DNA from: a virus
IMG/VR virus record: IMGVR_UViG_3300006735_000020
Span: 1 to 64,000 of that record
DNA length: 64,000 bases
Strand: one strand, 5' to 3'
The notes beneath the pieces are model-generated. The model was not told the origin of the DNA. It made no database searches and was given only the letters and a program-made list of their open reading frames with translations. The position numbers and the translations under genes were made by a program. The stretch's first letter is position 1, and every line of letters begins with the position of its first letter. Positions 28,220 through 64,000 of the stretch are shown piece after piece.

Positions 28220-28657
28220 ATGACCAAATTTGAAAACCGTTTTTTTAAATCTCTTAATGAACAAGCTGAAGAGGAGAGAGCAGCTTTTGAAGCAGAATTA
28301 GAGGATAATACCGAGGCTGGTGATTTTGACGTAGATGTTGAAGTAGATGAAGTTGCTGTTGATGAAGATCCAAATGTAAAGGCTGCACAAGCTGTTAGCG
28401 AGCGCAACGCGGCTATGAGAACTAAGCTTGAAGGTTGGGTTGGTGAAATTGAACAGTTTTTAGAGTACTTAAATGGTTCATCTCCAGATTCAATTCAAAC
28501 TCTACTAGCTAATGCTGAGCCTGATACAATCTTTGATCGTATGAAAGCTTCTGAACAGCGTAAAATTGCTAGAGTTGCTACAGAGCTAGCTGCTCTAAAC
28601 GAGTCGTTTAAAGGTTATATTGCCCAGACCGGAAATGCTCAGTTTAAATACGTTTGA
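28220..28657 (+). CDS. Acidic hypothetical protein, possible head-internal/scaffold-like
   Basis: TAAATA 28209-28214; leader MTKFENRFFKSLNE. Confidence 0.6.
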   Translation: MTKFENRFFKSLNEQAEEERAAFEAELEDNTEAGDFDVDVEVDEVAVDEDPNVKAAQAVSERNAAMRTKLEGWVGEIEQFLEYLNGSSPDSIQTLLANAEPDTIFDRMKASEQRKIARVATELAALNESFKGYIAQTGNAQFKYV

Positions 28658-37866: not shown

Positions 37867-39252
37867 ATGAGTTCCTTCGATTTTACCGATAATTTTAGCG
37901 GCTTTAATGATTTATTCAACAGGGCAGAGTTCCTTACGGAAGCTAAAAAGTCACCTTACGCTAAATACCACCCTTCTTTTGGTGGTGTTACTAAAGATCT
38001 AAGATCTGCTGGGTTCAGTTCTGCTCCGTTGGATACAATTAACTTTATTAGAACAGCACTGTATAACTTAGAGCTTATAAGCGATGACGAGTTAGCTGCT
38101 GCTAAGAGAGGAGCTGGGTTTGCTGCCAAAAAGCAAAATCTTCTAGCTTTATTGGATGCAAAAGAGGATGTTATCGAACAAAATAAAGACGCAATTGCTA
38201 AAGAAGTTGAAGATAATCTCGCTCGTTATATTAACAGAGCAACAACTGATAGAGGTAGAGAAGAAAAATATGCAGCACAAAAAGCTGCTTTGGAATTAGC
38301 TAAAGACATTAAAGCAGGTGAAGATATGGGTGATGCTGTTGAAGGCGCTGTAGGTCAAATGGATGCTGCAGAATCTGAGTTAGCTCAAAGTTTGGAAATG
38401 TCAAAAAAAGATCCAACAACATTTATTGAGATTAAAATTAGAGATGCTGAGCGTGTTGAAGATGTTGGTAATATTGTCTCTAAGTATGCTAATGAAGATG
38501 GGTTAGATATTAGTGGTAATACAGTTCAGTTTTCAGTTGACCCAGATACTCCATTAGCTAATGCTGTTACAGCACACGGTATTGATAAAATTGAAGCAGC
38601 GTTAAAGAGAGACGTTGATAAGATTAGTGATAGTGTAGTTGTTGTTATGTCACCAGATGAAGATTACGAGGAGATGGGATATGGTTTTGATAGTCCGGAA
38701 GAGCCTGATGAGTATTCAATGGGTGAAGAAGGTGGTGGAATTACTGAAGTAGAAGATGCAGAAGATCTTAGCGCTAAGAAAGCTAGAGCAGGAAAAGATA
38801 TCGGTAAACCAGGAAAGAATTTCTCTAAAATAGCAAAAAGCGCTGGTAAAAAGTATGGCTCAAAAGCAGCTGGAGAAAGAGTAGCTGGTGCTGTATTAGC
38901 TAAGATGAGAGGTAATTACGAGGGTGCCGAGGACCTTGATCACTTCTTAACTAAAGAGCAGCCAGAGGATTATGTTCCATCAACTGATTATGAAGACGTG
39001 TTAGATGATCTTGTTAACAAGGATAAAGAAAAGCATGCTATGAAGAAGCTTAGCAATGAAGATGAAGAAGATGCTATAGTAATGCAACCAATGCTTGAGT
39101 CACATAAGACAGATACATCTGCATATCTTACAGAGCAATCAGCTTCAGATAAACGTAATAAGAAAACGGAGATTGAACCTCAATCCTTTAAGGAAAAATA
39201 CAAGCCAAAAACATCTTGGCAGTTAGAAGAGCTTAGACGCTACGGTCTCTAA
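37867..39252 (+). CDS. Acidic late protein with embedded basic module, probable head-internal protein
   Basis: Late promoter; FLTE|AKK leader; internal EDAE/EGAE/EDEE sites. Confidence 0.6.
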   Translation: MSSFDFTDNFSGFNDLFNRAEFLTEAKKSPYAKYHPSFGGVTKDLRSAGFSSAPLDTINFIRTALYNLELISDDELAAAKRGAGFAAKKQNLLALLDAKEDVIEQNKDAIAKEVEDNLARYINRATTDRGREEKYAAQKAALELAKDIKAGEDMGDAVEGAVGQMDAAESELAQSLEMSKKDPTTFIEIKIRDAERVEDVGNIVSKYANEDGLDISGNTVQFSVDPDTPLANAVTAHGIDKIEAALKRDVDKISDSVVVVMSPDEDYEEMGYGFDSPEEPDEYSMGEEGGGITEVEDAEDLSAKKARAGKDIGKPGKNFSKIAKSAGKKYGSKAAGERVAGAVLAKMRGNYEGAEDLDHFLTKEQPEDYVPSTDYEDVLDDLVNKDKEKHAMKKLSNEDEEDAIVMQPMLESHKTDTSAYLTEQSASDKRNKKTEIEPQSFKEKYKPKTSWQLEELRRYGL

Positions 39253-52521: not shown

Positions 52522-52545
52522 TCTATTATTATAAATATAATTATA

Positions 52546-52932
52546 ATGGAATCAAGTGGCAAATTTGAACGTATCTTTTTAAGAATGCTAAAAGAAGAGA
52601 TGACAGCTGGTGCTGGAGGTGCACTTGGTAGCGGATCTTCATACAATCCACCCGGAGATGTAAGTTCTGGTGATACTTATGCTCCAGGTGATGCTAGATT
52701 ACCCAAGGCTCTTGGAGCAGTCCAAACACGTAAAGGTACAGCAGGTAAGAAGAAGAAAAGGAAAAGAAAAGAGGAGAACGAAGAGGGGTTTCCTGAGGAA
52801 GATGCAGAAAAGAAAAAGAAAGCTGATAGATGTAAGCGTAGGGCTGATTCCGCTTATGGTAAAAAGACTTCTGCTTACAAATCTGGAGCAATCGTAAGGT
52901 GTAGACAGGGAAAAATCTGGAAAAAGAAATGA
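52546..52932 (+). CDS. Late protein with C-terminal basic Cys-containing module
   Basis: TATAAATA upstream; EDAE followed by ADRCKRRA...TSAYKSGAIVRCR. Confidence 0.65.
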   Translation: MESSGKFERIFLRMLKEEMTAGAGGALGSGSSYNPPGDVSSGDTYAPGDARLPKALGAVQTRKGTAGKKKKRKRKEENEEGFPEEDAEKKKKADRCKRRADSAYGKKTSAYKSGAIVRCRQGKIWKKK

Positions 52933-53360
52933 GCATGTCACAAAAAGAGGTTCTTGAAGCTAGTGACTCTTTGCGACAGTGGTTTAAGAGAGGTGGAACT
53001 GATCCTAAGACTGGTAAGAAGTTTAAAGGGTGGGTAAATTGCAAGACTGGTGGCCCATGTGGTCGTAAATCTAAAAAATCCGGTGGTAGTTACCCGGCTT
53101 GTCGACCAACTAAAGCGGCTTGTAAGAGTATCAAGGGTAAGATGTATAAGAAAAAAGGACCTAAGCGTGTTAACTGGAAGAAGAAAAAGAGAAAGAGTGA
53201 AAACGCTGAAGATGTGCATAAGCCTGTTAAGCCTGGTATCTTAAAAAAGAGATTAGGTAAGTTATCTTGTAGTAAGGTGAGAGGTGCGAAGGGTAAGTTA
53301 AAGGATAAGGGTACGCATTACGCAAAAGCACTACAACGCTATTTAAATTATCATTGTTAG
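52929..53360 (+). CDS. Basic Cys-rich late protein with two modules
   Basis: SLRQWF...WVNCKTGGPCGR...YPACRP; ENAE; KPGILK...LSC. Confidence 0.65.
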   Translation: MSMSQKEVLEASDSLRQWFKRGGTDPKTGKKFKGWVNCKTGGPCGRKSKKSGGSYPACRPTKAACKSIKGKMYKKKGPKRVNWKKKKRKSENAEDVHKPVKPGILKKRLGKLSCSKVRGAKGKLKDKGTHYAKALQRYLNYHC

Positions 53361-53373
53361 CATAAATATTGTT

Positions 53374-53808
53374 ATGCAATTCGACGAATTAGTAAAGCAA
53401 ATCTTAGAAGCTAAAGAAGCACCAAAGGGTAAGCATTATAACTCTGCCGGTCAGTTGAGAAAAGGCGATGCTGATTCAGATGGCCGTGGAGGTCCAAAGT
53501 ATAGGTCTGATCCTACTTACAATAACCCTAATGATCCGGATGATGAGGAGATTCCTGCTGAAGACGCTGAGAAAGTCGATAAGGATCGTATGAAGTGTAA
53601 CAGTCCTCGTCGTACTTCAGGTGGTTCTAAGAAATTCGTTGTTAAAGCTTGTAAAGATGGTAAAGAAAAGATTGTTCGCTTTGGAGATCCAAATATGAAG
53701 ATCAAAAAGAGCAATCCTAAGCGTAGAAAGTCGTTCCGCGCACGTCATAAGTGTGATCAGAAAAAGGATAAGTTCTCTGCTGGTTACTGGAGTTGTAAAA
53801 AATGGTAG
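53374..53808 (+). CDS. Basic late protein with conserved phage C-terminal module
   Basis: EDAE then KKFVVKAC...VRFGDPNM...RRKSFRARHKC...AGYWSCKKW. Confidence 0.7.
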   Translation: MQFDELVKQILEAKEAPKGKHYNSAGQLRKGDADSDGRGGPKYRSDPTYNNPNDPDDEEIPAEDAEKVDKDRMKCNSPRRTSGGSKKFVVKACKDGKEKIVRFGDPNMKIKKSNPKRRKSFRARHKCDQKKDKFSAGYWSCKKW

Positions 53809-53821
53809 ATAAATACGCCAT

Positions 53822-54610
53822 ATGGCGGTCGTAGATAAATACCTCAAAAACAGCTTTGCAGGGACTTTGCTTCCTGATGAGTGTGAGCAAAAAAACATTA
53901 ATGTATTAACTCAAGTACACGAAGTTTTACAGATGAGATTGTTTTCTTATCTTATAGAACAAGAGTGTATTAAAGATAAAAATGACACTATTAGTATGAT
54001 TGAGTTAGGTGCTGATGATGGTGAATATACTCATATTTTTCGTAAAGTAGTTTCTTTGTTTGATAAAAAAAGCTTTAACATATGTACTGATGCTATGTTA
54101 CATAGGGTCGAAAGCTTAGAAGATAGATTTGAAGGTGAAAATGTAAAGTTATATCATGGATATTCAGGTGTATTCGATAAAAAATCGCATGAAGATGAGG
54201 CGGTTCCAGCAGGTTATTTTAGCGCAAAAAAAATTACAATGCGAGAACTCTTCACAAAAAATAATTTAGATTATTTAAATTTTTTACATATTGATATTCA
54301 GGGTGGGGAAGAAGAGTTAATTACAGAGATTATTAATGAAGATTTATATGATAAAATAGGTTATTATTTTATTTCTACTCATGATATTGACAGACATTTA
54401 AGAGTATTGAGTGCATTAAAAAATAATGGTCACGTAGTGTTTGATATAGCAGAGCCAGCGACTGGGTGGGCTTTTGGTGATGGTTTTATTTTAGCTACAA
54501 ATAAAAAACAATCGTTATCACCAAGAGATATACCATTAGAATATATGCATTTTAATACTAAATTTAATGATCCTCCAGAAATCCGGGGCATAATACGGTA
54601 TAATTTATGA
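53822..54610 (+). CDS. FkbM-like SAM-dependent methyltransferase
   Basis: MIELGADDGEY, FLHIDIQGGE, FISTH; late motif upstream. Confidence 0.7.
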   Translation: MAVVDKYLKNSFAGTLLPDECEQKNINVLTQVHEVLQMRLFSYLIEQECIKDKNDTISMIELGADDGEYTHIFRKVVSLFDKKSFNICTDAMLHRVESLEDRFEGENVKLYHGYSGVFDKKSHEDEAVPAGYFSAKKITMRELFTKNNLDYLNFLHIDIQGGEEELITEIINEDLYDKIGYYFISTHDIDRHLRVLSALKNNGHVVFDIAEPATGWAFGDGFILATNKKQSLSPRDIPLEYMHFNTKFNDPPEIRGIIRYNL

Positions 54611-55005
54611 AAGATTTAGGCCATTGGAAAGGAATTCTCGAAGAAAGTGTAGAGCTACCTTATGGTTTCATTTATAAGATAACTAATCTTACTAATGACA
54701 AAAAGTATATTGGTAAGAAGCAGTGTCAGTCAATAAGAAAGCGTCCTCCTCTGAAAGGTAAGAAGAATAAACGACATCAAAAAATAGAAACTGACTGGAA
54801 GACCTATACTTCCTCATCAAACGAACTCAATGAACATATAAGAATACTCGGAAAGGTTAATTTTAAGTTTGAAATCCTTAGATGGTGCGATTCCAAGTGG
54901 GAGTTGAGTTATCATGAAACTAGATTACAATTTGAAGAAGAGGTATTACTAAGAGATGACTATTACAACGGAATTATCAACGTCAGAATCGGAAGGCGTA
55001 AATGA
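54607..55005 (+). CDS. GIY-YIG family endonuclease
   Basis: YGFIYKITN...YIGKK, WKTYTSS, YYNG. Confidence 0.8.
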   Translation: MKDLGHWKGILEESVELPYGFIYKITNLTNDKKYIGKKQCQSIRKRPPLKGKKNKRHQKIETDWKTYTSSSNELNEHIRILGKVNFKFEILRWCDSKWELSYHETRLQFEEEVLLRDDYYNGIINVRIGRRK

Positions 55006-55450
55006 TACCATACGTGGTTTTGAGTTTATTAACCTTAATAAGTGTCTTAACAAGTCTTTCAATGAATATCTTCTTTATATTACCGAGCATGAGCTAAAAT
55101 TAACTCGAAAAGAGAAGAATAAGCTTGGTATACACTTCATTATTAAAGAACTTATAAGTGTATGTTCTAAGACTAGTAATAAGAAATGGTTTTACTACAA
55201 GACAGACGGTAAAACAATCGAACATACACTGGTTAAGCGTATTTTTAATGCACTACCTACTAATATATCATATAGTGAAGATAGCTTTGATACGTTTTTA
55301 GAAGAAAGAGACTACATTTCATTTAAAAAGAAAGATACATCAGCTGTTTCTTTCTATAAATTTAGACTTTTCCTTCGAAGATACGAATTGCAGCAAATTG
55401 AAAGTGAGTTTCTATCTAATATAAATATAAAACTCTCACTACTTCCATAA
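54956..55450 (+). CDS. Hypothetical protein
   Basis: 164-aa ORF; start uncertain. Confidence 0.55.
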   Translation: MTITTELSTSESEGVNDTIRGFEFINLNKCLNKSFNEYLLYITEHELKLTRKEKNKLGIHFIIKELISVCSKTSNKKWFYYKTDGKTIEHTLVKRIFNALPTNISYSEDSFDTFLEERDYISFKKKDTSAVSFYKFRLFLRRYELQQIESEFLSNINIKLSLLP

Positions 55451-55458
55451 ATATATAC

Positions 55459-55872
55459 ATGAGTAAGTTTCTAAGACTGGTAGAAGAGAATCGACCAGGT
55501 GAAGATAAATATACTGTGGAGTTAAGAGACGTAAACGGTGAAATAGTCGATTCTTTTGATATGTTTGGCGTGAGTAGCCCTTTCGATATTTTTGATAGCT
55601 TTAAGCGAGAGTATGCTCCCGAGATTCCCGTAGAAGATCAAGAGGTTACCATGGGAAATAAAAATCCATACGATGTTGATAAGGAAGTTAATAAGTTAGC
55701 TAATCAAGCTAAGGGTGGTGTAATGGGTAAGATTGCAGGAGCAATGGGAACAGCACCGCAAGAAGCTAAAAAGGCCGTAAAAATGAGATCAGACCTTGCA
55801 AAAAAAGCTGTAGAACTATATAAACAACAAACTGGTAAGTTATCTAACGCAATTGATGACGCAAAAGTATAA
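55459..55872 (+). CDS. Late hypothetical protein, probable head-internal
   Basis: TAAATA-N5-ATG; leader MSKFLRLVEE; internal EDQE. Confidence 0.6.
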   Translation: MSKFLRLVEENRPGEDKYTVELRDVNGEIVDSFDMFGVSSPFDIFDSFKREYAPEIPVEDQEVTMGNKNPYDVDKEVNKLANQAKGGVMGKIAGAMGTAPQEAKKAVKMRSDLAKKAVELYKQQTGKLSNAIDDAKV

Positions 55873-55877
55873 AAATC

Positions 55878-56225
55878 ATGAAAAAGACATTACAATTATT
55901 TGAACAATATAAAAGGCTTTATTCAGAGCAGGATGAGGTAGAAGAAGTCGATGTTGATGTTGATGTCGAAGCTGATGCTACTGATGCAGAGGATATTCCA
56001 CCGGAGCCTACTGGTATTTCACCTGAAGGTGAGGTATATGTCGCTGATCTGTTAACTAATGCCTTTATATATGCACCAGCTATGCAAGATATTAACATTG
56101 CTGCACAAGTGAATAAAGAATTTGGTAGGACACAGCCTAGAAAGGTCATTGAAACGATTGAAAGATTGATCGAATTTTCAAATGAAGAGGTTGAACAAGA
56201 ACTTGAAGACTTAGACGCACAATAA
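55878..56225 (+). CDS. Acidic hypothetical protein, probable head-internal
   Basis: Leader MKKTLQLFEQYKRLYSE; very acidic. Confidence 0.6.
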   Translation: MKKTLQLFEQYKRLYSEQDEVEEVDVDVDVEADATDAEDIPPEPTGISPEGEVYVADLLTNAFIYAPAMQDINIAAQVNKEFGRTQPRKVIETIERLIEFSNEEVEQELEDLDAQ

Positions 56226-56226
56226 C

Positions 56227-57618
56227 ATGCAGTGGTCATTAGAAGACATTTATAAAAAGCAGGTACGTGGTATTATTCCACCGCGTAGACATCTTCGCGT
56301 ATTGGGTGAAAAGTTTAATTTAGAGGATGCGCCGGGGCTTGAACGTGTAAGAAAAGAGTTAAGCGGGGAAACGCCTATAAGAGCTAATTTATCGTTTATT
56401 GGTAAGCAAATTAATAGTAAAGAGGATATTGAGAAGTTGAATTTAGATCCAGAGATGGAAGAATATCTTAAGAAGACTCTATCGTATTGTTTAACACTTC
56501 CGGAAGAGGACCGTGAGGCTTGCTGGCAGGAATTAGCAGGGAAGGTTAAAACACATCCTATTGATAATATACTTACAAGATATCTTGTGTCAAGAGATTG
56601 GCCGAGTGTTTCTGCAGGTAAATATGCAGGTGAGTTAGTTAAATTACTTACTAAGGATGTAGATGATATGAGAGGATTTAGTACAAAAGATCTAGAGGAT
56701 TATATTGAGGGAAATATAGCTAAACCTAATTTTGGTACTGAAACAAAAGGCAATCTTGTAACTGACTTAGGTAAGATTAAAGTACCTAGTGATTTTGTAT
56801 ATAAACTTATGCAGCATAAGACTCAGGATGAAAAAATAAGAGGAGTTGGAATGGGTGAGCTTGCGATGACTATATTCTTTGATAATGTTAAAGCAGCGAC
56901 AGGTAAAGGAGATTTAAGTATAGACGATCAGGAATTAGAAATTAAGGGGCATGGAGCAGCTTTAGGGGCAACTGGGGATCAAAGATTAGATATTAGGGAG
57001 TTGGTTAAAAAACCTTTAGAAGCGGGAGGGTTAGGTATTGGTTATAAGGATGTTTTAGCAAAAACAGGTAAGTTAAGGTTCACAGGACCGACTTATGGTG
57101 GTAAGATTTACAATGCTGCAAATTTTGCACAAGCTATTGCAGATGCGTACGCGGATGCGCGCGATAAAAAGAGATTTAAAGATAACTTTTGGACTATTAT
57201 AGAGAAAAACTTTAACTCTGGTCAAAAAGGTGAAATGGGTAACGAACAAGATGTTAAGAGGGTATATGATGAGATAGATTTGACGAGTGCAGACGATATT
57301 AATAGTACTATAGCATTAATGAATTTTGTTAGATATATTAGTAAAGAGGAGGTTAATCACTTTATGGTGCATGATTTTGGATCTAGAGGGAAGATTGCAA
57401 AAACAACTGGGGATTATGGACCGAGTACACCAGCGAATAGAGGAGATTATATTTACGTACACGGTGAGCCTCTAGAAATGGCACAACAATTAAGTGAGCT
57501 AGGAGAGAAAGTTGGATTTGAGCGTATACAGCTTAATAACTTAAGGCCACGGATAGGGTTACCAATGCACGGTGGAGGGTTCTACGGAGCTCCAACTGTA
57601 TTAAAAGACAAATATTAA
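56227..57618 (+). CDS. Hypothetical protein with PD-(D/E)xK nuclease-like motif
   Basis: GVGMGELAM...KGDLSID.QELEIKG. Confidence 0.5.
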   Translation: MQWSLEDIYKKQVRGIIPPRRHLRVLGEKFNLEDAPGLERVRKELSGETPIRANLSFIGKQINSKEDIEKLNLDPEMEEYLKKTLSYCLTLPEEDREACWQELAGKVKTHPIDNILTRYLVSRDWPSVSAGKYAGELVKLLTKDVDDMRGFSTKDLEDYIEGNIAKPNFGTETKGNLVTDLGKIKVPSDFVYKLMQHKTQDEKIRGVGMGELAMTIFFDNVKAATGKGDLSIDDQELEIKGHGAALGATGDQRLDIRELVKKPLEAGGLGIGYKDVLAKTGKLRFTGPTYGGKIYNAANFAQAIADAYADARDKKRFKDNFWTIIEKNFNSGQKGEMGNEQDVKRVYDEIDLTSADDINSTIALMNFVRYISKEEVNHFMVHDFGSRGKIAKTTGDYGPSTPANRGDYIYVHGEPLEMAQQLSELGEKVGFERIQLNNLRPRIGLPMHGGGFYGAPTVLKDKY

Positions 57619-57621
57619 AAA

Positions 57622-58830
57622 ATGAAAAAATTTAAACTATATTTCGAAGATTACTTAGAGCTCCTTGAAGAGGGTAAGGCTAATACACATCTCACACACT
57701 TAGAAGAACTAATTCTTACTAAAGGTAAGGGTGGTTATGATCAAGCTAAGGGCTTTTTAGTTAATTTACTCGGTCATTTACAGGGAAAGAGTAAGAGAAA
57801 GATCGGTACTACAGTAAAATGGGACGGTGCGCCTGCTATCTTCGCTGGAAAGCACCCTGATACCGGTAAATTCTTTGTTGGTACTAAGTCTATCTTTAAT
57901 AGAGATCCTAAAATTAACTATAATGAGCAAGATGTTGAAATAAATCACGGGCATTCACCTGGTTTAGCAGATAAGCTTAAAAAAGCTCTTAAGCATTTAC
58001 CTAAATTAGGTATCAAAAACATAATGCAAGGTGATTTCATGTTTGACTCTTCATCAGTTAAGAAAGAGAACATCGACGGTGAGGTACATTATACCTTTCA
58101 ACCAAATACAATTAAGTATGCAGTAGAAGCTGACTCAGATTTAGGTAAACAGATAGCTAACTCCGTGTTTGGTATTATATTCCACACTGAATATGATGGA
58201 TTGGACAGCCCTGCATCATTTGGTGCTAAGGTTAACCGGTTGAATAAGGTGCCCGGTGTTTGGTTTGATGATGCTTTCTTTAAAGACGATACTGGCATTG
58301 TAAATTTAACAGATGATGAGGTAAAACAGGTTAGAGACTTAATTAAGACCGCTGATTCAATTAAAGTAGATTATAAAGACCTACCTTCCGACCTACTCAA
58401 CCCTTATATCAATACAGAAATTAGAGAAGGTAAGTTCTTAAATGATCCAGAAGAATCTTATAGGAACTTTATTGAGTGGTATACTACTAGAATTAAAAAA
58501 GAAATAGATAAAAGAAAATCTGTACGTGGTAAACAGAAATTAGAAGAGACACTTAAGCAAAAGACGGCTCAGTTTGAATCACAAAAGAGTGATATAGTTA
58601 ATTTGTTTAAGGTTAGTAGTTTGTTGTCGCAGGCTAAACAGATCTTTATTAACAAGTATAATAATGCTGTATATAACACTAAACACTTCATTGATGAAGG
58701 TGAGGGTGTGCTGAGGGTCACTGCTCCTGAGGGATATGTAGCAGTTGATAGAGATGGTAATGCTGTTAAGCTTGTTAACAGATTAGATTTTAGTTCAGCT
58801 AACTTTCAAAAAGATAAACCTGGGTCATGA
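57622..58830 (+). CDS. ATP-dependent ligase-like nucleotidyltransferase
   Basis: TVKWDGAP (KxDG), QGDFMF, EGYV, VKLV in ligase motif order. Confidence 0.65.
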   Translation: MKKFKLYFEDYLELLEEGKANTHLTHLEELILTKGKGGYDQAKGFLVNLLGHLQGKSKRKIGTTVKWDGAPAIFAGKHPDTGKFFVGTKSIFNRDPKINYNEQDVEINHGHSPGLADKLKKALKHLPKLGIKNIMQGDFMFDSSSVKKENIDGEVHYTFQPNTIKYAVEADSDLGKQIANSVFGIIFHTEYDGLDSPASFGAKVNRLNKVPGVWFDDAFFKDDTGIVNLTDDEVKQVRDLIKTADSIKVDYKDLPSDLLNPYINTEIREGKFLNDPEESYRNFIEWYTTRIKKEIDKRKSVRGKQKLEETLKQKTAQFESQKSDIVNLFKVSSLLSQAKQIFINKYNNAVYNTKHFIDEGEGVLRVTAPEGYVAVDRDGNAVKLVNRLDFSSANFQKDKPGS

Positions 58831-59366
58831 GAACATTTAGAGAATATTTTGAAGATATGGAGACAAGAGTTGAGCGAATCGCTCTTCTCCCCGGTGGTTT
58901 TAAGCCCCCTACAAAGGGTCACTTTAATGCTTTAAGGTATTTGCTTGATGATGCTGATAAGGGTATTGTTTTTATTGGTGGTAAGGCGCGTGAGGGTATC
59001 ACACCAGAGCAATCAGAGAAGATATGGAACATATATGCAAAATATTTTGATAAGCCTGTAGAGGTTGTGCATGTACCAAACCCAGTAAGGGCGGTTTATG
59101 ACTTTGCTGACGAACATTTAGACAGTACATTACTTGTTGGTGCTGGTGAAAAGGATGAAGATGTTAAGCGTTACAAATATTTTATAGATAATGTTGAAAA
59201 GTATCCATATGTTAATGTAGTTAAGATACCAATGCAAGAAGGTGGTATATCTGGTAGTGAAACAAGAGAGATGATACAAAAAAATATTGACGAGTCGTTA
59301 GATTACTTTGTACCTGAAGAGATATCCATTGAAGATAGAGATCAAATAAAAGCAATATTGGTATAA
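58827..59366 (+). CDS. HxGH-family nucleotidyltransferase (cytidylyltransferase-like)
   Basis: PGGFKPPTKGH and ISGSETRE. Confidence 0.78.
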   Translation: MRTFREYFEDMETRVERIALLPGGFKPPTKGHFNALRYLLDDADKGIVFIGGKAREGITPEQSEKIWNIYAKYFDKPVEVVHVPNPVRAVYDFADEHLDSTLLVGAGEKDEDVKRYKYFIDNVEKYPYVNVVKIPMQEGGISGSETREMIQKNIDESLDYFVPEEISIEDRDQIKAILV

Positions 59367-59374
59367 ATAATATT

Positions 59375-59794
59375 ATGAGAGATAAGAAACGTAAAGAGAA
59401 AGCTATGCTTGAAGAAGCGTACGGAAGGGTCAACGAGATGTTAGGACCTCATAATAACCCTTATCCTCAAGAGATGACAATAGCAGTGCCTGTACCAGCA
59501 GAAGATGAAAGCTGTGGAGAGTATGATCAATCAGAAATCGATATGGCTGGTAGAGACCTTCTCAAAGCTCAAGAGTACGCAGCTAAGTTAACCGCTATGG
59601 TACAGCAGGTTCCAGGTTTAGATGGATGGGTTTCCGCTAAGATAACAAAAGCTTCAGATTATCTTTCTTCTGTATACCATTTTCTCGATTATGAGCTACG
59701 TGAAAAGCCACAGGAGGCAGTGATAGACGTAGAGGAGATTGAAGCTCCTGTAGAAGTCTTCAATGTTGGGTATGAAGAAGCAGAAAACACTTGA
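59375..59794 (+). CDS. Late hypothetical protein, probable head-internal
   Basis: TATAAATA upstream; LDGWVSAKITKASDYL helical motif. Confidence 0.6.
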   Translation: MRDKKRKEKAMLEEAYGRVNEMLGPHNNPYPQEMTIAVPVPAEDESCGEYDQSEIDMAGRDLLKAQEYAAKLTAMVQQVPGLDGWVSAKITKASDYLSSVYHFLDYELREKPQEAVIDVEEIEAPVEVFNVGYEEAENT

Positions 59795-59818
59795 CCTCAT
59801 TCTTAGATAACAGTTGTT

Positions 59819-60259
59819 ATGAAAAAATTTAATCAATTCTTCCTCGAAAAACAAGTTTTAGGACTCATCGAGTTCTTTGACGTAGATGGTATTGGTAAGA
59901 TACCATCAAAGCTTGACTCCGGTAACGGAGCATTTAACGTTATACATGGGGAAGATATACAAGTACAGGGTAATAAAGTGCTTTTTAAGACAGTTAACAA
60001 TCAACATCTTATGAAAGATAAGGTGGACGACATTGTTATTAACGTTGGTGCTGGTAATACAGAAGAAAGACCTGTAGTTAACTTTGATCTTAAGATTGGT
60101 AATAAAGAATTTAAAGATATACCCTTTTCAATTGGTAATAGATCTTCTAACCTATTTAAAATCTTAGTAAGTAAAGATTTTATTGAAAAAGAGCTTGATG
60201 CTCTTATCGATGTTAGTCAAGAAAACATCGCTGATAGTGAAATTGAAGCTACTTATTAA
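59819..60259 (+). CDS. Retropepsin-like aspartic protease (RimK-associated family)
   Basis: SKLDSGNG active-site motif, ERPVV, FSIGNR. Confidence 0.72.
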   Translation: MKKFNQFFLEKQVLGLIEFFDVDGIGKIPSKLDSGNGAFNVIHGEDIQVQGNKVLFKTVNNQHLMKDKVDDIVINVGAGNTEERPVVNFDLKIGNKEFKDIPFSIGNRSSNLFKILVSKDFIEKELDALIDVSQENIADSEIEATY

Positions 60260-60786
60260 TACCAAGTAGGCTTCCAACGTAACGTCCAAGTAGCAAAGTC
60301 TTTATCATGACGAATATACTCTCTATATTTGTCAATGGTTGAAAGATTATTAAAATCTTTTACCTTTCTACAATCACAATCGTCACTAATAGCTACTGCA
60401 TAATTAGTTAGACCGGTTTTATTCATAATAGTATTATGAATATTCTTACCGCACCATTCAATAAACGTTTTTGTAAAATGCTCGTTTGATTCAGGCCATC
60501 TATACATACGCTCAGTAAACATTTCCAATGTATGATCAACTAACCACTTAAAGTTATCTTTAGTTTCGCGAGCCCATATAGAGCATTGATGATTAAAGTA
60601 CCCTTTACCTCTTCTTCGAGGTTTACCGGTAGAAGTTCTTGGAGTAGATGGATGATCTAATACTTCTTGAGGAAATGCATGAGCTAACATAATAGCCCCT
60701 TCAATTTGCATCTTTGATCTTACGTGTTGATCACAGAGATTATAAGTAGAGACGATAGGATCGTCATCCGTTACAAAAATATTCAT
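60256..60786 (-). CDS. denV: Pyrimidine-dimer DNA glycosylase / endonuclease V family
   Basis: MNIFVTDDDP...DQHV.SKM.IE...ML, HQCSIWAR, YREY. Confidence 0.7.
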   Translation of the reverse strand: MNIFVTDDDPIVSTYNLCDQHVRSKMQIEGAIMLAHAFPQEVLDHPSTPRTSTGKPRRRGKGYFNHQCSIWARETKDNFKWLVDHTLEMFTERMYRWPESNEHFTKTFIEWCGKNIHNTIMNKTGLTNYAVAISDDCDCRKVKDFNNLSTIDKYREYIRHDKDFATWTLRWKPTWY

Positions 60787-60808
60787 TCCTTTATTGTAAA
60801 GTCGTTCC

Positions 60809-61858
60809 TTACCTTAATCCAGTCGACTCAAAAACATCTCTAGTAACACCAGCTTTAAAGCCTCCTTCAATACCTTTTACAATAACTGATACAGCATTAT
60901 GACTATGCAAACTCTCATTATGAGAAGCTACAATCTTAAAGTCTAAGATACGGGATTCGTTAGTAAGCTTTTCATATAACAGTCTCACAGCGTCTTCCAC
61001 GAACTTTAAGTAAGCACCATTCTTTTCAGCAAATGCTTGCTCATCTTCTCGCTTAACCATAACTTGTGTCTCAGTTTGTAGAGCATCGAGACATAATTCT
61101 TGAATATCTTCAATCCAAAGCATATCTTCAAACTTTACACTTACACGAGCAACGCTTCTCTGACTATGAGGTACAGTAGCTCTATTACGATACTTCTCAG
61201 CATGCTCACTTAATTCAAAGCTACAAGGACAGGCAGAAGAATAAACAAAATCAAAATGAATATACTTCTTAAATTCACCCTCTTTAGTTAAGTCACCTTC
61301 AAATACCACATCATAGTATTGATAACCTTCTAGACCACTACGTAAGCTTTTTTGTTTAATAGGGTAAGAAATTTTAAGCATTATTCTTGAGTCAAAACAC
61401 TTGAGATTATTTTTATAAGTCTCTAAAACGTCTTTAATCTTATCAATACTAAATGTCTCATCCTTATGATCGTAAAAACTTCTCATAATACGTGACATAT
61501 TAATGCCTTTCTTATGAGCTTCTAAACTAACACTACCAGTAACACTCGTTTCTAGTTCAATAGTCTTACCATTTCTCTTTTTATAAGTCAAAGGCAGTTT
61601 AAAGTTATGAATACCTACTTGCTGAATAGGAACTGCCGCACCTTGAATTAAGCTAGATGGTCCATTTTGCAGATCAGGTAAAGAAGATATATACTCTTTA
61701 GTAGCGACGACGTTTTTATCATAAACTCGAATAGGAGGAAAATAACTACTGCTATATTCTTCACCCATTATTTTTTTTGCAATAACATCTTTTTCGCCAG
61801 TAAGTTCATCATCCTCTCCTAGCCACTCATAATTAGAATCTTTTTTACTTTTACTCAT
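60809..61858 (-). CDS. folE2: GTP cyclohydrolase IB
   Basis: KGINMSR, SACPCS, PHSQRS, VKREDE, FVEDAVR, ESLHSHNA. Confidence 0.92.
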   Translation of the reverse strand: MSKSKKDSNYEWLGEDDELTGEKDVIAKKIMGEEYSSSYFPPIRVYDKNVVATKEYISSLPDLQNGPSSLIQGAAVPIQQVGIHNFKLPLTYKKRNGKTIELETSVTGSVSLEAHKKGINMSRIMRSFYDHKDETFSIDKIKDVLETYKNNLKCFDSRIMLKISYPIKQKSLRSGLEGYQYYDVVFEGDLTKEGEFKKYIHFDFVYSSACPCSFELSEHAEKYRNRATVPHSQRSVARVSVKFEDMLWIEDIQELCLDALQTETQVMVKREDEQAFAEKNGAYLKFVEDAVRLLYEKLTNESRILDFKIVASHNESLHSHNAVSVIVKGIEGGFKAGVTRDVFESTGLR

Positions 61859-61912
61859 TTATATGATACTATTATAACTACAATATTTGATTTTCAAGAC
61901 TAAATATTGTAT

Positions 61913-63334
61913 ATGGCGAAAATGTCACAAAAAGAACTGGTTGAAGAAGGTTTTTCAGATAAGATACGTGGTATAGCGAAAGCGGTTAAAACCGGTGTTA
62001 AGCAAGCTGCTCAGCAAGGTGTAAATTTAGATACCGGTCAGCTAACTACGGGGATGTATAAGTCTTATAAAGGCGAGCAACCAGTAGCGTTCCTTAAGAA
62101 AGCTCTAGAGAATGACAAAGAGATTGGGATAGTTAAAATTGACAAGAGTAATATTAAAAAACAACAAGCAAGTGGTAAGAAGGGTTACCTAGGTCGAATT
62201 GTTGGACCGAAAACAGTAACTTTAATTCCATTCGAAGGTACTTTATATAATAAGAAGGAGAGGCGTTATGAGGGACCTGGAGCTGGTACTTCACCTCCAC
62301 CTGATGCTGTAAATGCGGAGCTTAAAAATGAAAAGACAGCATATATGGGTGATTCAAGAGGTGAAAGAGGTAAGTACAGACCGGTAAGTGAGAAGGGATC
62401 AGTAAAAAAACGACTGTTGGGAGCTCTAACCAAGATAGGTATAGATGATCAATCGGCAAAAGAGTTCGCTTTATATTTAAGTAAAAATATGAAACGAGTT
62501 CTCGCAGGGATACAGAAAACAAGAGCTGGACGTGGTTATGATTTTACGTTTGATCCTGATGCAGCACTCGGTGTAACTAAGACAACAAAGAAGGCTCCGA
62601 AGTTTCCTAGAGCGGGAGGTGTTGCCGAGGGTCCTACTGTGCAAGAGTTACAAGATAACCCTCCTAAAACAAAAAAGTTAGTTATACCAGAAGGTTTTAC
62701 TTTAAGAGATATTATTCAGTTATCTAAAAAGGTTTTGCTTTTTGAAGAGCCAGGGGATGACTTTTCTGAATATAAAAAAATGGGCCCTGCTAAATTTATT
62801 GCTAATTTATCTGATGAACAAATGGAATCCTTGTTAAAGGATATTCAAGAGATACAGCCTGGATTAGACGTGCAATTTAAATTAAAAGCATCACAAGACT
62901 ATCTTGATAGAAAAGAGAAAGAAGAGACTGGTCCGAAATCAGACTATCAAGGTGAAACAGGGATGTTTGTAGCAGAAATATTTAGAACGAAAGATGGATT
63001 ACAGCTTGGCGATATATATAGACAAGAAGATCCAACAGACGTTGTTAGAGGCGCGCAACAAAGTAAGAGTAAAGAAGAAGTTAAACTGTCCCCATTTGAT
63101 AAAACTGTAGAAACCTTAAAAACTAAGAATAATCTTAAAGCTAACACGCTAGTATCTGCAATCAAAGAAATTAATGATGTTAATATAATAACTAATATTA
63201 CCGGTGGCAAGGAAGGGGATAGATTATCTGATGATGATATAGTAAAAATTAAAAACGAGTTAATTAAGCAAAAGATCATTAAAGAAAAAAGTTCTCAAAA
63301 AATCCTGCTTCGACAGTTGACTTCGCTTTCCTAA
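61913..63334 (+). CDS. Large late hypothetical protein, probable head-internal (start revised to ATG 61913)
   Basis: TAAATA 61901-61906 then N6-ATG; leader MAKMSQKELVEE. Confidence 0.6.
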   Translation: MAKMSQKELVEEGFSDKIRGIAKAVKTGVKQAAQQGVNLDTGQLTTGMYKSYKGEQPVAFLKKALENDKEIGIVKIDKSNIKKQQASGKKGYLGRIVGPKTVTLIPFEGTLYNKKERRYEGPGAGTSPPPDAVNAELKNEKTAYMGDSRGERGKYRPVSEKGSVKKRLLGALTKIGIDDQSAKEFALYLSKNMKRVLAGIQKTRAGRGYDFTFDPDAALGVTKTTKKAPKFPRAGGVAEGPTVQELQDNPPKTKKLVIPEGFTLRDIIQLSKKVLLFEEPGDDFSEYKKMGPAKFIANLSDEQMESLLKDIQEIQPGLDVQFKLKASQDYLDRKEKEETGPKSDYQGETGMFVAEIFRTKDGLQLGDIYRQEDPTDVVRGAQQSKSKEEVKLSPFDKTVETLKTKNNLKANTLVSAIKEINDVNIITNITGGKEGDRLSDDDIVKIKNELIKQKIIKEKSSQKILLRQLTSLS

Positions 63335-63422: not shown

Positions 63423-64000
63423 ATGACTTATACATCTTCGAAGGTACTCGAATTAGGATCAACAGCATTTCGTCAGCCTAATGCAGATTCTCATTGCAAA
63501 TATTTACATGGCTATCAACTCAAAGCAGAACTTACTTTTGGTTGTGAAAAACTAGATAACAATAACTGGGTATTTGATTTTGGTGGGTTAAAACAACTTA
63601 AAGAAATTTTTAATAATCAATTTGATCATACTACTGTTATTTCTGGTTTAGATCCTGATTTGGATACTTTTAAGGACTTGCAAGATAAAAATATTATTCA
63701 ACTAAGAATTCTAGAAACTGGTGTAGGTATTGAAAAATTTGGTGAATGGGTATTTAAGACTGCAGATACGTATATTGAAGAAGCAACTGAAGGACGCGTA
63801 TGGATTGAAAACGTAACAGTATTTGAGCATGGTAATAACTTTGCATCATGTCATAAGTCTGTAAAAGCTGGATCAACGTTTGTTGATGAAGAGGGTACTA
63901 AAACACATGTTGTTGAGGATGTGGCTCCGGAAGAGCCAATCACTACAACAGAACCACCGGAACAGCGAGTTGATCCAAGAGCTGCTAATGTTGGTCCTGC
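63423..64000 (+). CDS. queD: 6-carboxytetrahydropterin synthase QueD (3'-truncated; not in ORF track)
   Basis: AFRQPNADSHCKYLHGY, WVFDFGGLK, FDHT, GIEKF, VFEHGNN; TTGATT-N16-TATAAT promoter upstream. Confidence 0.88.
   Translation, partial: MTYTSSKVLELGSTAFRQPNADSHCKYLHGYQLKAELTFGCEKLDNNNWVFDFGGLKQLKEIFNNQFDHTTVISGLDPDLDTFKDLQDKNIIQLRILETGVGIEKFGEWVFKTADTYIEEATEGRVWIENVTVFEHGNNFASCHKSVKAGSTFVDEEGTKTHVVEDVAPEEPITTTEPPEQRVDPRAANVGP

What the first reader, a model, noticed from the sequence alone, without database searches (positions are those of the whole stretch)
52546..63334. Cluster of proteins with capsid-targeting-like leaders and internal E-[D/N/G]-A-E sites: a protease-processed ejected cargo system
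Seen: most + strand genes here begin with a short amphipathic leader ending in hydrophobic-X-E: MESSGKFERIFLRMLKE, MSMSQKEVLE, MQFDELVKQILE, MSKFLRLVEE, MKKFKLYFEDYLELLEE, MRTFREYFE, MKKFNQFFLE, MAKMSQKELVEE (also 28220 MTKFENRFFKSLNE, 37867 ...FLTE, 1412 ...NLHE). A second motif lies exactly at module boundaries: PEEDAE|KKKKADRC (52546), SENAE|DVHKP (52929), PAEDAE|KVDKDRMKC (53374), PVEDQE|VTMG (55459). Known: T4 internal proteins carry the leader MKTYQEFIAE, which prohead protease gp21 removes after Glu. Inference: these are polyprotein-like precursors packaged in the head and cut into small, very basic, Cys-containing peptides (DNA condensation, DNA protection or anti-defence effectors).
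Basis: partly seen in the sequence, partly recalled or inferred. Interest (0 to 1): 0.8.

Follow-up and report, generated by a model that had tools for sequence, protein, structure and literature searches.

The report
Capsid-cargo leaders and Glu-jointed polyproteins
An uncultured marine T4-like phage puts T4-style "load me into the head" leader peptides on a late gene cluster of small very basic modular proteins and enzymes whose parts are joined at conserved Glu-ending motifs, so they are probably packed into the capsid, trimmed and delivered with the DNA, though cutting and packaging are not shown for this phage.

Summary
Observation confirmed. The window is part of an 89-kb contig of a marine T4-like myophage that encodes a gp21-type prohead protease.

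- **Leaders.** They match the T4 capsid-targeting sequence and are enriched in the cluster (5/14 genes vs 0/85 elsewhere).
- **Cargo swapping.** Relatives keep the leader while the cargo behind it changes.
- **Joints.** Module boundaries end in Glu in 136 of 137 distinct contexts: [L/I/V]-x-E or E-[D/N/E]-A-E.
- **Leaderless homologues.** In podophages, an archaeal virus and cyanophage P-HM2 they start exactly at the predicted mature N-terminus.

New here: ORF 52546 carries a copy of the major capsid protein's maturation site and N-terminal arm. This copy matches the cognate capsid protein in three lineages. In cyanophage S-CREM2, a leader-bearing nucleotidyltransferase and a 52546-type protein were found in virions by mass spectrometry (PMC10665884).

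Not shown: cleavage, and packaging in this phage. EDAE does not fit gp21's canonical L/I-x-E.

Verdict: a new variant of the T4 internal-protein/CTS system. This scan noted similar systems before in several other marine T4-like genomes.

The parts
52530..52537 (+). TATAAATA, a T4-type late-promoter-like motif 16 nt before the ATG of ORF 52546. Similar (T)ATAAATA motifs lie at 53362, 53809, 55420, 55447 and 59362.
   Evidence: the same motif sits 12-18 nt before baseplate, gp3, portal and neck genes of the contig. This is a consensus match only.
52546..52596 (+). Leader of ORF 52546 (aa 1-17, MESSGKFERIFLRMLKE), ending L-K-E.
   Evidence: the leader is conserved in more than 20 relatives while the C-terminal modules differ.
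52597..52713 (+). Copy of the major capsid protein (gp23) segment that follows its maturation site (N-arm), aa 18-56.
   Evidence: BLASTP against relative's gp23, E 4e-8, 67% over 27 aa.: gp23 is the second-best hit in the G001 proteome (E 2e-9; next hit 0.29).: lineage-matched copies also in S-CREM2 and P-HM2.
52798..52809 (+). E-D-A-E joint (aa 85-88) of ORF 52546.
   Evidence: P4-P1 before module 1 is EDAE in 9 of 11 distinct contexts.
52810..52929 (+). Module 1 (aa 89-128): 40 aa, net charge +15, 2 Cys.
   Evidence: similar to the C-terminal module of the S-CREM2 virion protein gp160 (E 1e-5).
52929..53360 (+). ORF 52929. Leader aa 1-10 (MSMSQKEVLE); module 3 aa 11-90 (net +24, 4 Cys); ENAE at aa 91-94 (53199-53210); module 4 aa 95-143 (net +12, 2 Cys).
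   Evidence: Modules 3 and 4 occur separately, or with an inserted module 5, in relatives. Module 4 occurs in Flavobacterium phage immuto behind V-K-E.
53374..53808 (+). ORF 53374. Leader aa 1-12 (MQFDELVKQILE), disordered acidic linker, EDAE at aa 63-66 (53560-53571), module 2 aa 67-144 (53572-53805; net +21, 4 Cys; phrog_7595).
   Evidence: (AF2): helix 2-13, low confidence 14-68, pLDDT above 90 from about residue 70.
55459..55872 (+). ORF 55459. Leader MSKFLRLVEE, acidic part, V-E-D-Q-E joint (EDQE at 55633-55644), basic C-part (net +6).
   Evidence: (relatives read PVEDAE).
55878..56225 (+). Acidic 115-aa protein (net -21) with the leader-like start MKKTLQLFEQYKRLYSE.
56227..57618 (+). Cassette gene. 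A conserved 28-aa leader (56227-56310; MQWSLEDIYKKQVRGIIPPRRHLRVLGE) is followed by a variable body.
   Evidence: 16 distinct leader sequences and at least 8 unrelated bodies of 343-467 aa; many synonymous codon differences.: no Pfam family in the bodies.
57622..58830 (+). DUF6267, ligase-like (KWDG), with leader MKKFKLYFEDYLELLEE before the conserved AKANTHL start.
   Evidence: Pfam E 2e-97, domain starts at residue 21.: [L/I]-x-E|A precedes the domain in all 35 contexts, also inside NTase-DUF6267 fusions.: P-HM2 homologue starts MSKNTHL.: leader disordered in the model; weak fold match to tRNA and DNA ligases.
58827..59366 (+). HxGH nucleotidyltransferase (PPAT/NMNAT-like) with leader MRTFREYFE.
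   Evidence: 4f3r PPAT E 8e-5, query residues 15-163.: profile starts at residue 18.: relatives start MKTFKEYFEQ, compared with T4 IPI MKTFKEF.
59375..59794 (+). Acidic 139-aa protein with its own TATAAATA; start MRDKKRKEKAMLEE|AY.
59819..60259 (+). Retropepsin-like (RimB / Zn_protease-like) protein with leader MKKFNQFFLE.
   Evidence: matches are below the curated cut-offs.: leader conserved in 25 loci.
61907..63334 (+). Basic 475-aa protein (net +18) with start M(YMAK)MSQKELVEE|G.
   Evidence: Homologues were found in only a few loci.
37867..39252 (+). Outlying member. It has TATAAATA and a 25-aa leader ending F-L-T-E|A. A basic 56-aa module is flanked by VEDAE| (aa 296-299) and YEGAE| (aa 352-355).
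28220..28657 (+). Outlying acidic protein with leader MTKFENRFFKSLNE.
54607..55450 (+). SegE-type GIY-YIG homing endonuclease (two overlapping ORFs) inserted in the cluster. Not part of the cargo set.
   Evidence: PF19835, E 1e-32.

Best explanation
The + strand late cluster next to uvsY/uvsW (52546-63334, plus 37867 and 28220) encodes capsid cargo of a T4-like phage. Each protein starts with a 10-28 residue amphipathic leader that works like the T4 capsid-targeting sequence. The leader brings the protein into the scaffolding core of the prohead, and the gp21-type prohead protease removes it after the Glu of an [L/I/V]-x-E motif (inferred). The three small proteins 52546, 52929 and 53374 (also 55459 and 37867) are strings of interchangeable modules. 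A second conserved joint, E-[D/N/E]-A-E, precedes each very basic module and is most likely also a processing site, though the enzyme is uncertain. Cutting there would release 40-84 residue peptides with net charge +12 to +24 that stay with the DNA and leave with it. ORF 52546 additionally carries a lineage-matched copy of the capsid protein's maturation site and N-terminal arm. This copy probably docks it to the same partner as the capsid protein (scaffold, protease or inner capsid wall). Enzymes are loaded the same way for use at the start of infection: ligase-like DUF6267, HxGH nucleotidyltransferase, retropepsin-like protein and a variable cassette protein.
For: - **Protease and phage type.** gp21-type protease, portal, gp3, gp4 and scaffold lie on the same contig.
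- **Late expression.** Late-promoter motifs precede 52546, 53374, 53822, 55459, 59375 and 37867, as they do the structural genes.
- **Leaders match T4.** T4 starts read from NC_000866 are MKTYQEFIAE|A and MKTFKEF..ITE|A. The review PMC9026906 gives positions 4 and 7 for targeting, 8 and 10 for processing, and L/I-x-E for gp21. Enrichment is 5/14 vs 0/85, and 4/14 vs 1/234 in G001.
- **Leaders kept, cargo swapped.** Seen. Selection is on the peptide: 719 synonymous vs 1063 non-synonymous codon differences in the 56227 leader.
- **Joints.** P1 is Glu in 136/137 contexts. Modules 2a and 5 follow either joint class. EDAE codons vary synonymously.
- **Leaderless homologues.** They begin at the predicted mature N-terminus: module 2 in CRP-3, HTVC106P and a Nitrosopumilaceae virus, and DUF6267 and NTase in P-HM2. 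The viruses with stand-alone modules lack gp21, and those with leaders have it.
- **DUF6267.** The domain is always preceded by [L/I]-x-E|A, even inside fusions.
- **Capsid-protein copy.**. gp23 sites in relatives read L-x-E|A.
- **Structure model.** AF2 gives helix leader, disordered linker, folded module.
- **Virion data.** The S-CREM2 virion proteome contains gp154 (NTase starting MKNFSSFLTE|A) and gp160 (52546-type).
Against: - There is no proteomic or biochemical data for this phage, and the contig lacks gp23 itself.
- EDAE has Asp at P3, whereas T4 gp21 needs L/I at P3. The scaffold and protease of this phage contain no EDAE.
- The loose hydrophobic-x-E motif is common by chance.
- The window's NTase belongs to a different HxGH subfamily from S-CREM2 gp154.
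- The link between 52546 and gp160 is weak in the N-part (E 0.009).
- The S-CREM2 authors note that abundant proteins may co-purify with virions.
- In P-HM2, DUF6267 and NTase have no leader and are not annotated as virion proteins.
Confidence: 0.6

Rival explanations
1. The proteins are packaged through their leaders, but the E-D-A-E joints are not cut. They would be acidic hinges or charge-masking linkers between modules of intact multi-domain internal proteins.
For: EDAE does not fit L/I-x-E. The linkers before it are acidic and disordered and sit next to poly-Lys runs. An earlier follow-up on another genome reached the same caution (e1-5763342).
Against: The motif is invariant before at least five unrelated modules and is absent from stand-alone homologues. 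At the same module start it is replaced by a leader end (ILNE|, LYLE|). Homologous joints in S-CREM2 gp160 and in many metagenomic relatives are canonical h-x-E sites.
Confidence: 0.22
2. The EDAE joints are cut by the cluster's own leader-bearing retropepsin-like protein (59819), not by gp21. That protein would be co-packaged and act in the head or after ejection.
For: The gene is conserved in 25 related loci with a CTS-like leader. It has weak similarity to RimB/RloA-type retropepsin-like peptidases. EDAE joints are a speciality of this lineage.
Against: All family matches are below the curated cut-offs. HTVC008M and Melnitz have Glu-ending joints before module 2 (LEEAE|, MESE|) but no homologue of 59819. 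Nothing is known about its substrate preference.
Confidence: 0.08
3. The proteins are not cargo. They are late cytoplasmic enzymes and DNA-binding proteins whose N-terminal helices happen to resemble the CTS, and the Glu-ending boundaries reflect domain linkers.
For: The cluster lies beside replication and recombination genes. DUF6267 and NTase are leaderless in cyanophage P-HM2 and are not marked as virion proteins there. Hydrophobic-x-E is frequent by chance.
Against: The strict-pattern enrichment. The leaders are add-ons absent from homologues in viruses without gp21. The capsid-protein site copy. The virion mass spectrometry of S-CREM2 homologues.
Confidence: 0.07
4. Leaders and EDAE are conserved as DNA, serving as recombination linkers for cassette shuffling, not as peptides.
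For: Modules are swapped exactly at these points.
Against: Synonymous codon variation is abundant in EDAE (at least 12 codon combinations) and in the 56227 leader, while the amino acids are kept.
Confidence: 0.03

Closest known systems
Phage T4 internal proteins IPI, IPII, IPIII and Alt, with the capsid-targeting sequence (CTS) and gp21 processing (Mullaney and Black; reviewed in PMC9026906)
   Same: Short N-terminal leader with aromatic or hydrophobic residues at positions 4 and 7 and L/I-x-E|A at its end. Late genes. Small basic products. Unrelated cargo behind a conserved leader. A gp21-type protease in the genome. An enzyme (Alt) among the cargo.
   Different: No sequence homology of the mature parts to T4 IPs. 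Many more cargo genes are clustered. Multi-module polyprotein-like proteins. A second joint (EDAE) that does not fit L/I-x-E. A 28-residue leader type. A copy of the capsid protein N-arm.
Polymorphic ipI locus of T-even phages (CTS-like leaders on different basic proteins in T2, T4, T6; cited in PMC9026906)
   Same: A conserved leader with replaceable bodies at one locus, as at 56227 and 52546.
   Different: Here the bodies are 343-467 aa proteins and swappable mini-modules, in a distant marine lineage.
Ejection and inner-body proteins of giant phages phiKZ, 201phi2-1 and SPN3US, cut by gp21-like proteases after S/A/G-x-E or A-x-E (PMC9026906, PMC5694885)
   Same: Many head-packaged proteins are processed after Glu, with propeptides carrying several sites.
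   Different: A different P3 preference. No CTS-like 10-residue leader. No modular basic polyproteins have been described there.
Virion-associated cytidylyltransferase gp154 and protein gp160 of cyanophage S-CREM2 (PMC10665884)
   Same: Same neighbourhood (uvsY/uvsW/gp55). gp154 has a CTS-like leader and an HxGH NTase. gp160 has the leader, a capsid-protein N-arm copy, a Lys run and basic Cys modules. Both were found in virions by LC-MS/MS.
   Different: That paper did not note leaders, joints or the capsid-protein copy. The joints there are L/I-x-E, not EDAE. The NTase belongs to another subfamily.

Membership tests
T4-type CTS / internal-protein cargo system | The genome encodes a gp21-family (S77/U9) prohead protease and a T4-type scaffold | tested here: met
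   phrog_207 E 1.8e-56 at contig 87509-88174 (outside the window).: weak T4_CASP match for the next gene.
T4-type CTS / internal-protein cargo system | N-terminal 10-19 residue leader with key residues at positions 4 and 7, and L/I-x-E at 8-10 | tested here: met
   Five cluster genes fit strictly. The others (52546, 52929, 55878, 56227, 59375, 61907) fit only the h-x-E ending.
T4-type CTS / internal-protein cargo system | Late expression together with head genes | tested here: inconclusive
   (T)ATAAATA lies 12-16 nt (one at 38-39 nt) before the start codons, as at structural genes. This is a consensus match only; no transcript data.
T4-type CTS / internal-protein cargo system | Protein physically present in the mature head | not testable with these tools
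   Only indirect: S-CREM2 gp154 and gp160 were found in virions by LC-MS/MS.
T4-type CTS / internal-protein cargo system | Leader removed by gp21 after Glu | not testable with these tools
   Comparative support only: leaderless homologues start at the predicted mature N-terminus, and there is a copy of the gp23 site.
T4-type CTS / internal-protein cargo system | Sequence homology of mature parts to T4 IPI, IPII, IPIII or Alt | tested here: not met
   no family match to internal virion proteins. The relation is functional analogy plus a leader resemblance.
Canonical gp21 cleavage site | L or I at P3 and Glu at P1 | tested here: not met
   For the E-D/N-A-E joints, P3 is Asp or Asn. The criterion is met for leader ends and the DUF6267 junction.
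DUF6267 (PF19782) | Pfam model above the gathering score | tested here: met
   E 2.3e-97, 327 bits, residues 21-399.
ATP-dependent ligase / covalent nucleotidyltransferase superfamily (for DUF6267) | KxDG motif I and adenylyltransferase fold | tested here: inconclusive
   KWDG is invariant. The AF2 model has pLDDT 75. Residues 66-219 match the Trl1 ligase domain at Z 5.8 and Sulfolobus DNA ligase at Z 5.1; Foldseek probability is 0.63 for an archaeal DNA ligase. All are below firm thresholds.
HxGH nucleotidyltransferases (PPAT/NMNAT-like) for ORF 58827 | (H/T)xGH motif and family profile match | tested here: inconclusive
   TKGH motif is in the sequence. PDB 4f3r PPAT E 8e-5. TIGR01510 and TIGR00125 are below cut-off. 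phrog cytidyltransferase E 1e-3.
Retropepsin-like peptidases (PF05618 / RloA) for ORF 59819 | Family profile above cut-off and a D-S/T-G active site | tested here: inconclusive
   DSGNG is present. PF05618 gives 22 bits against a cut-off of 27. NF052264 gives 25 bits against 210.

The most novel reading that the evidence does not exclude
Marine T4-like phages load a changeable payload by two devices not described for T4. (1) Glu-punctuated polyproteins, in which interchangeable basic mini-proteins and enzymes are joined at protease sites, including a non-canonical E-D-A-E site that implies a widened or second specificity. (2) An internal protein that carries a lineage-matched copy of the capsid protein's maturation site and N-terminal arm. 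This protein would dock into the capsid or scaffold by mimicking the capsid protein and hold a poly-Lys / basic tail on the DNA.
Probability: 0.35. Interest if true: 0.85.

Novelty: new variant of a known kind. Interest (0 to 1): 0.68.

Why it matters
T4-like myophages are among the most abundant viruses in the sea, yet what they carry in the head besides DNA is almost unknown. If this reading holds:

- A simple sequence grammar (leader, Glu joints) would let injected proteins be read directly from metagenomes.
- A large pool of unknown small basic proteins would be marked as first-minute effectors or DNA-packing proteins. Module 2 alone has about 4,000 clusters at 50% identity.
- It would explain why cytidylyltransferases keep turning up in cyanophage virion proteomes.
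- It would give natural parts for protein delivery with T4-type capsids.
- The capsid-protein N-arm copy offers a directly testable new way of anchoring cargo.

Tried and rejected
- **Family searches.** Pfam, PHROGs and NCBIfam gave nothing for the three basic proteins, 55459, 55878, 56227, 59375, 61907 or for nine cargo variants.
- **DNA search.** Megablast of the cluster against phage records found no match.
- **tblastn of 52546 against phages.** No match.
- **Fold searches.** Module 2 gave no match. DUF6267 gave only weak ligase-like rows.
- **Promoter and terminator scan.** The sigma-70 and terminator scan of the cluster was uninformative.
- **Capsid N-arm copy in Melnitz.** A second copy was sought and not found.
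- **DNA-level recombination linker idea.** Rejected on synonymous variation.
- **Retropepsin as general joint protease.** Disfavoured, because HTVC008M and Melnitz lack it.
- **Tools.** No sequencing-run search was made, because transcripts would not show packaging or cleavage.
- **Literature.** No paper describing CTS-like cargo leaders in marine T4-like phages was found.

Full report
**Setting.** The window is the first 64 kb of an 89,324-bp viral contig. Its genes identify a T4-like myophage: clamp loader, baseplate and fibre genes, a replication block on the minus strand, UvsY and UvsW. Beyond the window lie gp3, the portal, gp4, a gp21-type head maturation protease (phrog_207, E 1.8e-56) and a scaffold-like protein. 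The contig ends before gp23. The closest cultured relatives by the DUF6267 gene are pelagiphage HTVC008M, Methylophilales phage Melnitz and cyanomyophages of the Kyanoviridae. IMG/VR holds 80 or more related loci at 61-99% identity, including a 93%-complete 197-kb relative, G001.

**The observation.** Hydrophobic-x-E near the N-terminus is not rare by itself (about 36% of other proteins). The T4 internal protein starts, read from the T4 record, are MKTYQEFIAE|A for ipII and ipIII and MKTFKEF...ITE|A for ipI. The review PMC9026906 states that CTS positions 4 and 7 serve targeting, positions 8 and 10 serve processing, and gp21 cuts after L/I-x-E. A pattern built on those positions hits 5 of 14 cluster genes and none of the other 85 proteins. 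In G001 it hits 4 of 14 against 1 of 234, and shuffled N-termini give 0.2-0.5 hits per proteome. The pattern was fixed after seeing the data, so the p-values (about 3e-5) are optimistic. T4-type late-promoter motifs lie 12-16 nt (one further copy at 38-39 nt) before 52546, 53374, 53822, 55459, 59375 and 37867, as before the baseplate, gp3, portal and neck genes.

**Leaders are add-ons kept while cargo changes.**
- In relatives the 52546-type leader (MESxGKFExxFxKxLxE) is fused to different C-terminal modules: the module of 53374, a ParB-like domain, and Cys-rich mini-domains.
- ORF 56227 shares only its first 28 residues (MQWSLEDIYKKQVRG.IPPR.HLRVLGE) with its positional homologues. These go on into at least eight unrelated bodies of 343-467 aa. 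The leader shows 719 synonymous against 1063 non-synonymous codon differences over all pairs, so the peptide rather than the DNA is kept.
- The DUF6267 Pfam model starts at residue 21.
- The NTase profiles start at residues 15-18.
- AF2 leaves the DUF6267 leader disordered and models the 53374 leader as a helix followed by a disordered linker.
- Cyanophage P-HM2 encodes the same DUF6267 and a cytidyltransferase without leaders (MSKNTHLEHLED; MKKVYVTFGRLNPPT). Stenotrophomonas phage DLP_6 has MMKFTQFLAE|SKD, and Melnitz has MKKFSEIIEA and MKKFSELTSE.

**Joints.** Over all distinct contexts in the window, the related loci and 267 database proteins, the residue before a module start is Glu in 136 of 137 cases. 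The joints fall into two classes.
- **Class I, [L/I/V]-x-E.** These form leader ends and the DUF6267 junction. They also occur inside roughly 640-950 residue NTase-DUF6267 fusion proteins, where the junction reads ...FKELLTE|AKANTHL.
- **Class II, E-[D/N/E]-A-E.** These precede modules 1, 2, 4 and 5 and a module in ORF 37867.

Module 2 is preceded by EDAE(G) in 109 of 111 close homologues where the start could be located. In the other two it directly follows a leader end, ILNE|. Module 5 likewise follows either ENAE| or LYLE|. EDAE is written with at least 12 codon combinations.

Module 2 is a very large family: 7,307 hits in one search and 3,994 clusters at 50% identity in the other. In Roseobacter and Pelagibacter podophages and in a Nitrosopumilaceae spindle-shaped virus it is a stand-alone protein of about 80 aa. 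Its start, MAVDKSKMKC... or MAIYRGRKV..., lies exactly at the boundary. Those viruses have no gp21 homologue, whereas immuto, DLP_6, HTVC008M, Melnitz and P-HM2 all do. Among 147 diverse representatives, 27 stand alone, 46 have h-x-E and 27 have an EDAE-like joint before the module. Frequent forms are [L/I]-x-E-A|EYQGRKV and h-x-E|KKKKKSAKDRMKC. Thus the canonical class I joint is the general form and EDAE is a speciality of this lineage.

**A copy of the capsid protein's maturation site.** The gp23 of close relatives reads ...ENQEKWCIEE|GSTAGATPGGSFGNG...YNP...SSDSYATGDARLPKVLIPMIRR. Residues 15-56 of ORF 52546 (LKEE|MTAGAGGALGSGSSYNPPGDVSSGDTYAPGDARLPKAL) match it.
- BLASTP gives E 4e-8 for the pair.
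- Against the 248 ORFs of G001, gp23 is the second-best hit after the orthologue (E 2e-9, next hit 0.29), with L-K-E aligned to I-E-E.
- In S-CREM2, gp160 residues 20-44 match its own gp23 residues 60-84 in 17 of 24 positions, just after gp23's L-L-T-E|A site.
- In P-HM2 a second copy of the gp23 N-arm (70% identity, E 2.5e-9) forms the very N-terminus of PHM2_171 and is followed by RRRTKKRKK.
- No such copy was found in Melnitz.

The copy therefore co-varies with the cognate capsid protein in three lineages. This argues for a shared partner: the protease, the scaffold or the capsid wall. The gp23 maturation sites of DLP_6, Melnitz, HTVC008M, P-HM2, S-CREM2 and immuto all read [L/V]-x-E|[A/I].

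**Experimental link.** I looked for it and found PMC10665884. The LC-MS/MS virion proteome of cyanophage S-CREM2 lists cytidylyltransferase ORF154 and the hypothetical proteins ORF155, 156 and 160. The authors remark that cytidyltransferases are often found in cyanophage virions, while warning about co-purification. In the record OR473000 these genes lie next to uvsY, uvsW and gp55, as here.
- gp154 starts MKNFSSFLTE|ADEK. It is homologous to the Melnitz, HTVC008M and L034 NTases (E 4e-44 to 2e-16).
- gp160 has the 52546 architecture: leader...IKEE|MMAAGATGFTG..., a Lys run, CW.GY-type and module-3-like units, and a C-terminal module-1-like unit (E 1e-5 to module 1, E 0.009 for the N-part). 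Its joints are class I (NLEE|KKNCW, EISE|GKKDAC).
- No peptide-level data are given, so processing remains unshown.

**Cargo.**
- **Predicted peptides.** Products of the three small proteins are 40, 84, 49 and 78 residues long. Their net charges are +15, +24, +12 and +21, with 2-4 Cys each. The intervening pieces are neutral to acidic.
- **Module 2.** It folds with pLDDT above 90 but has no match among solved structures.
- **DUF6267.** It keeps an invariant KWDG. Its central domain resembles ligase adenylyltransferase domains only weakly.
- **ORF 58827.** It is PPAT/NMNAT-like.
- **ORF 59819.** It is weakly retropepsin-like.
- **Fusion.** DUF6267 is fused with an NTase in many relatives, which points to a joint function.

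**Assessment.** Leaders that act as capsid-targeting propeptides removed by gp21 are well supported comparatively, and indirectly by the S-CREM2 proteome (about 0.7). That the EDAE joints are cut is plausible (about 0.5). The enzyme is open, because P3 is Asp. The retropepsin-like protein is a weak alternative, since HTVC008M and Melnitz have Glu joints without it. The system is a new variant of the T4 CTS / internal-protein system and not a homologue of the T4 IPs.

This scan has reported similar leader and joint systems in several other marine T4-like genomes. Specific to this report are the EDAE class with its statistics, the match to leaderless homologues, the capsid-protein N-arm copy and the S-CREM2 link. 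No paper describing these features was found in the searched library.

Noticed in passing
window 52597-52713; L092 1213-2745; L108 8343-9236 with L109 1982-3352; L117 (P-HM2 150780-151484): An internal protein carries a copy of the major capsid protein's post-cleavage N-arm. The copy matches the cognate capsid protein in three lineages. In P-HM2 it forms the protein's very N-terminus, with no leader.
   Followed up: partly
L039-L083 (for example L045 2262-4697, L053 3901-6345): In relatives at 61-63% identity, DUF6267 is the C-terminal half of 640-950 aa fusion proteins with an HxGH nucleotidyltransferase. The junction keeps ...FKELLTE|AKANTHL. Other relatives (L040, L049, L070, L073) extend DUF6267 at its C-terminal end.
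   Followed up: partly
window 53572-53805: Module 2 (phrog_7595) is a very widespread small basic domain: 3,994 clusters at 50% identity. It also occurs in podophages and in archaeal Nitrosopumilaceae spindle-shaped viruses. AF2 models it confidently, but no solved structure resembles it.
   Followed up: partly
window 54607-55450: A SegE-type GIY-YIG homing endonuclease is written as two overlapping ORFs (132 and 164 aa) and sits in the middle of the cargo cluster. It is present in about 30 related loci.
   Followed up: no
window 53822-54610: An FkbM-like methyltransferase candidate (weak) has a late-promoter motif but no leader. It was found in only 2 of 80 related loci.
   Followed up: no
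L016 5336-6004; L029 3664-4308: In two relatives the 52546-type leader and N-arm copy are fused to a ParB/sulfiredoxin-like domain (motif ...DGNHRLHKA...). This identification is by eye only.
   Followed up: no
L106 589-1347 and 1407 onwards (Flavobacterium phage immuto): A second common leader type, MK(I/L/K)(T/S)xxxLxxIIKE|A, is seen in immuto and in many metagenomic module-2 proteins (for example MKITKRRLDQIIKEE). immuto has a gp21 homologue.
   Followed up: partly
window 60256-61858 (- strand) and 63423-64000: FolE2-type GTP cyclohydrolase I and a QueD-like gene interrupt and flank the cargo cluster. They belong to the deazaguanine pathway noted by other readers.
   Followed up: no
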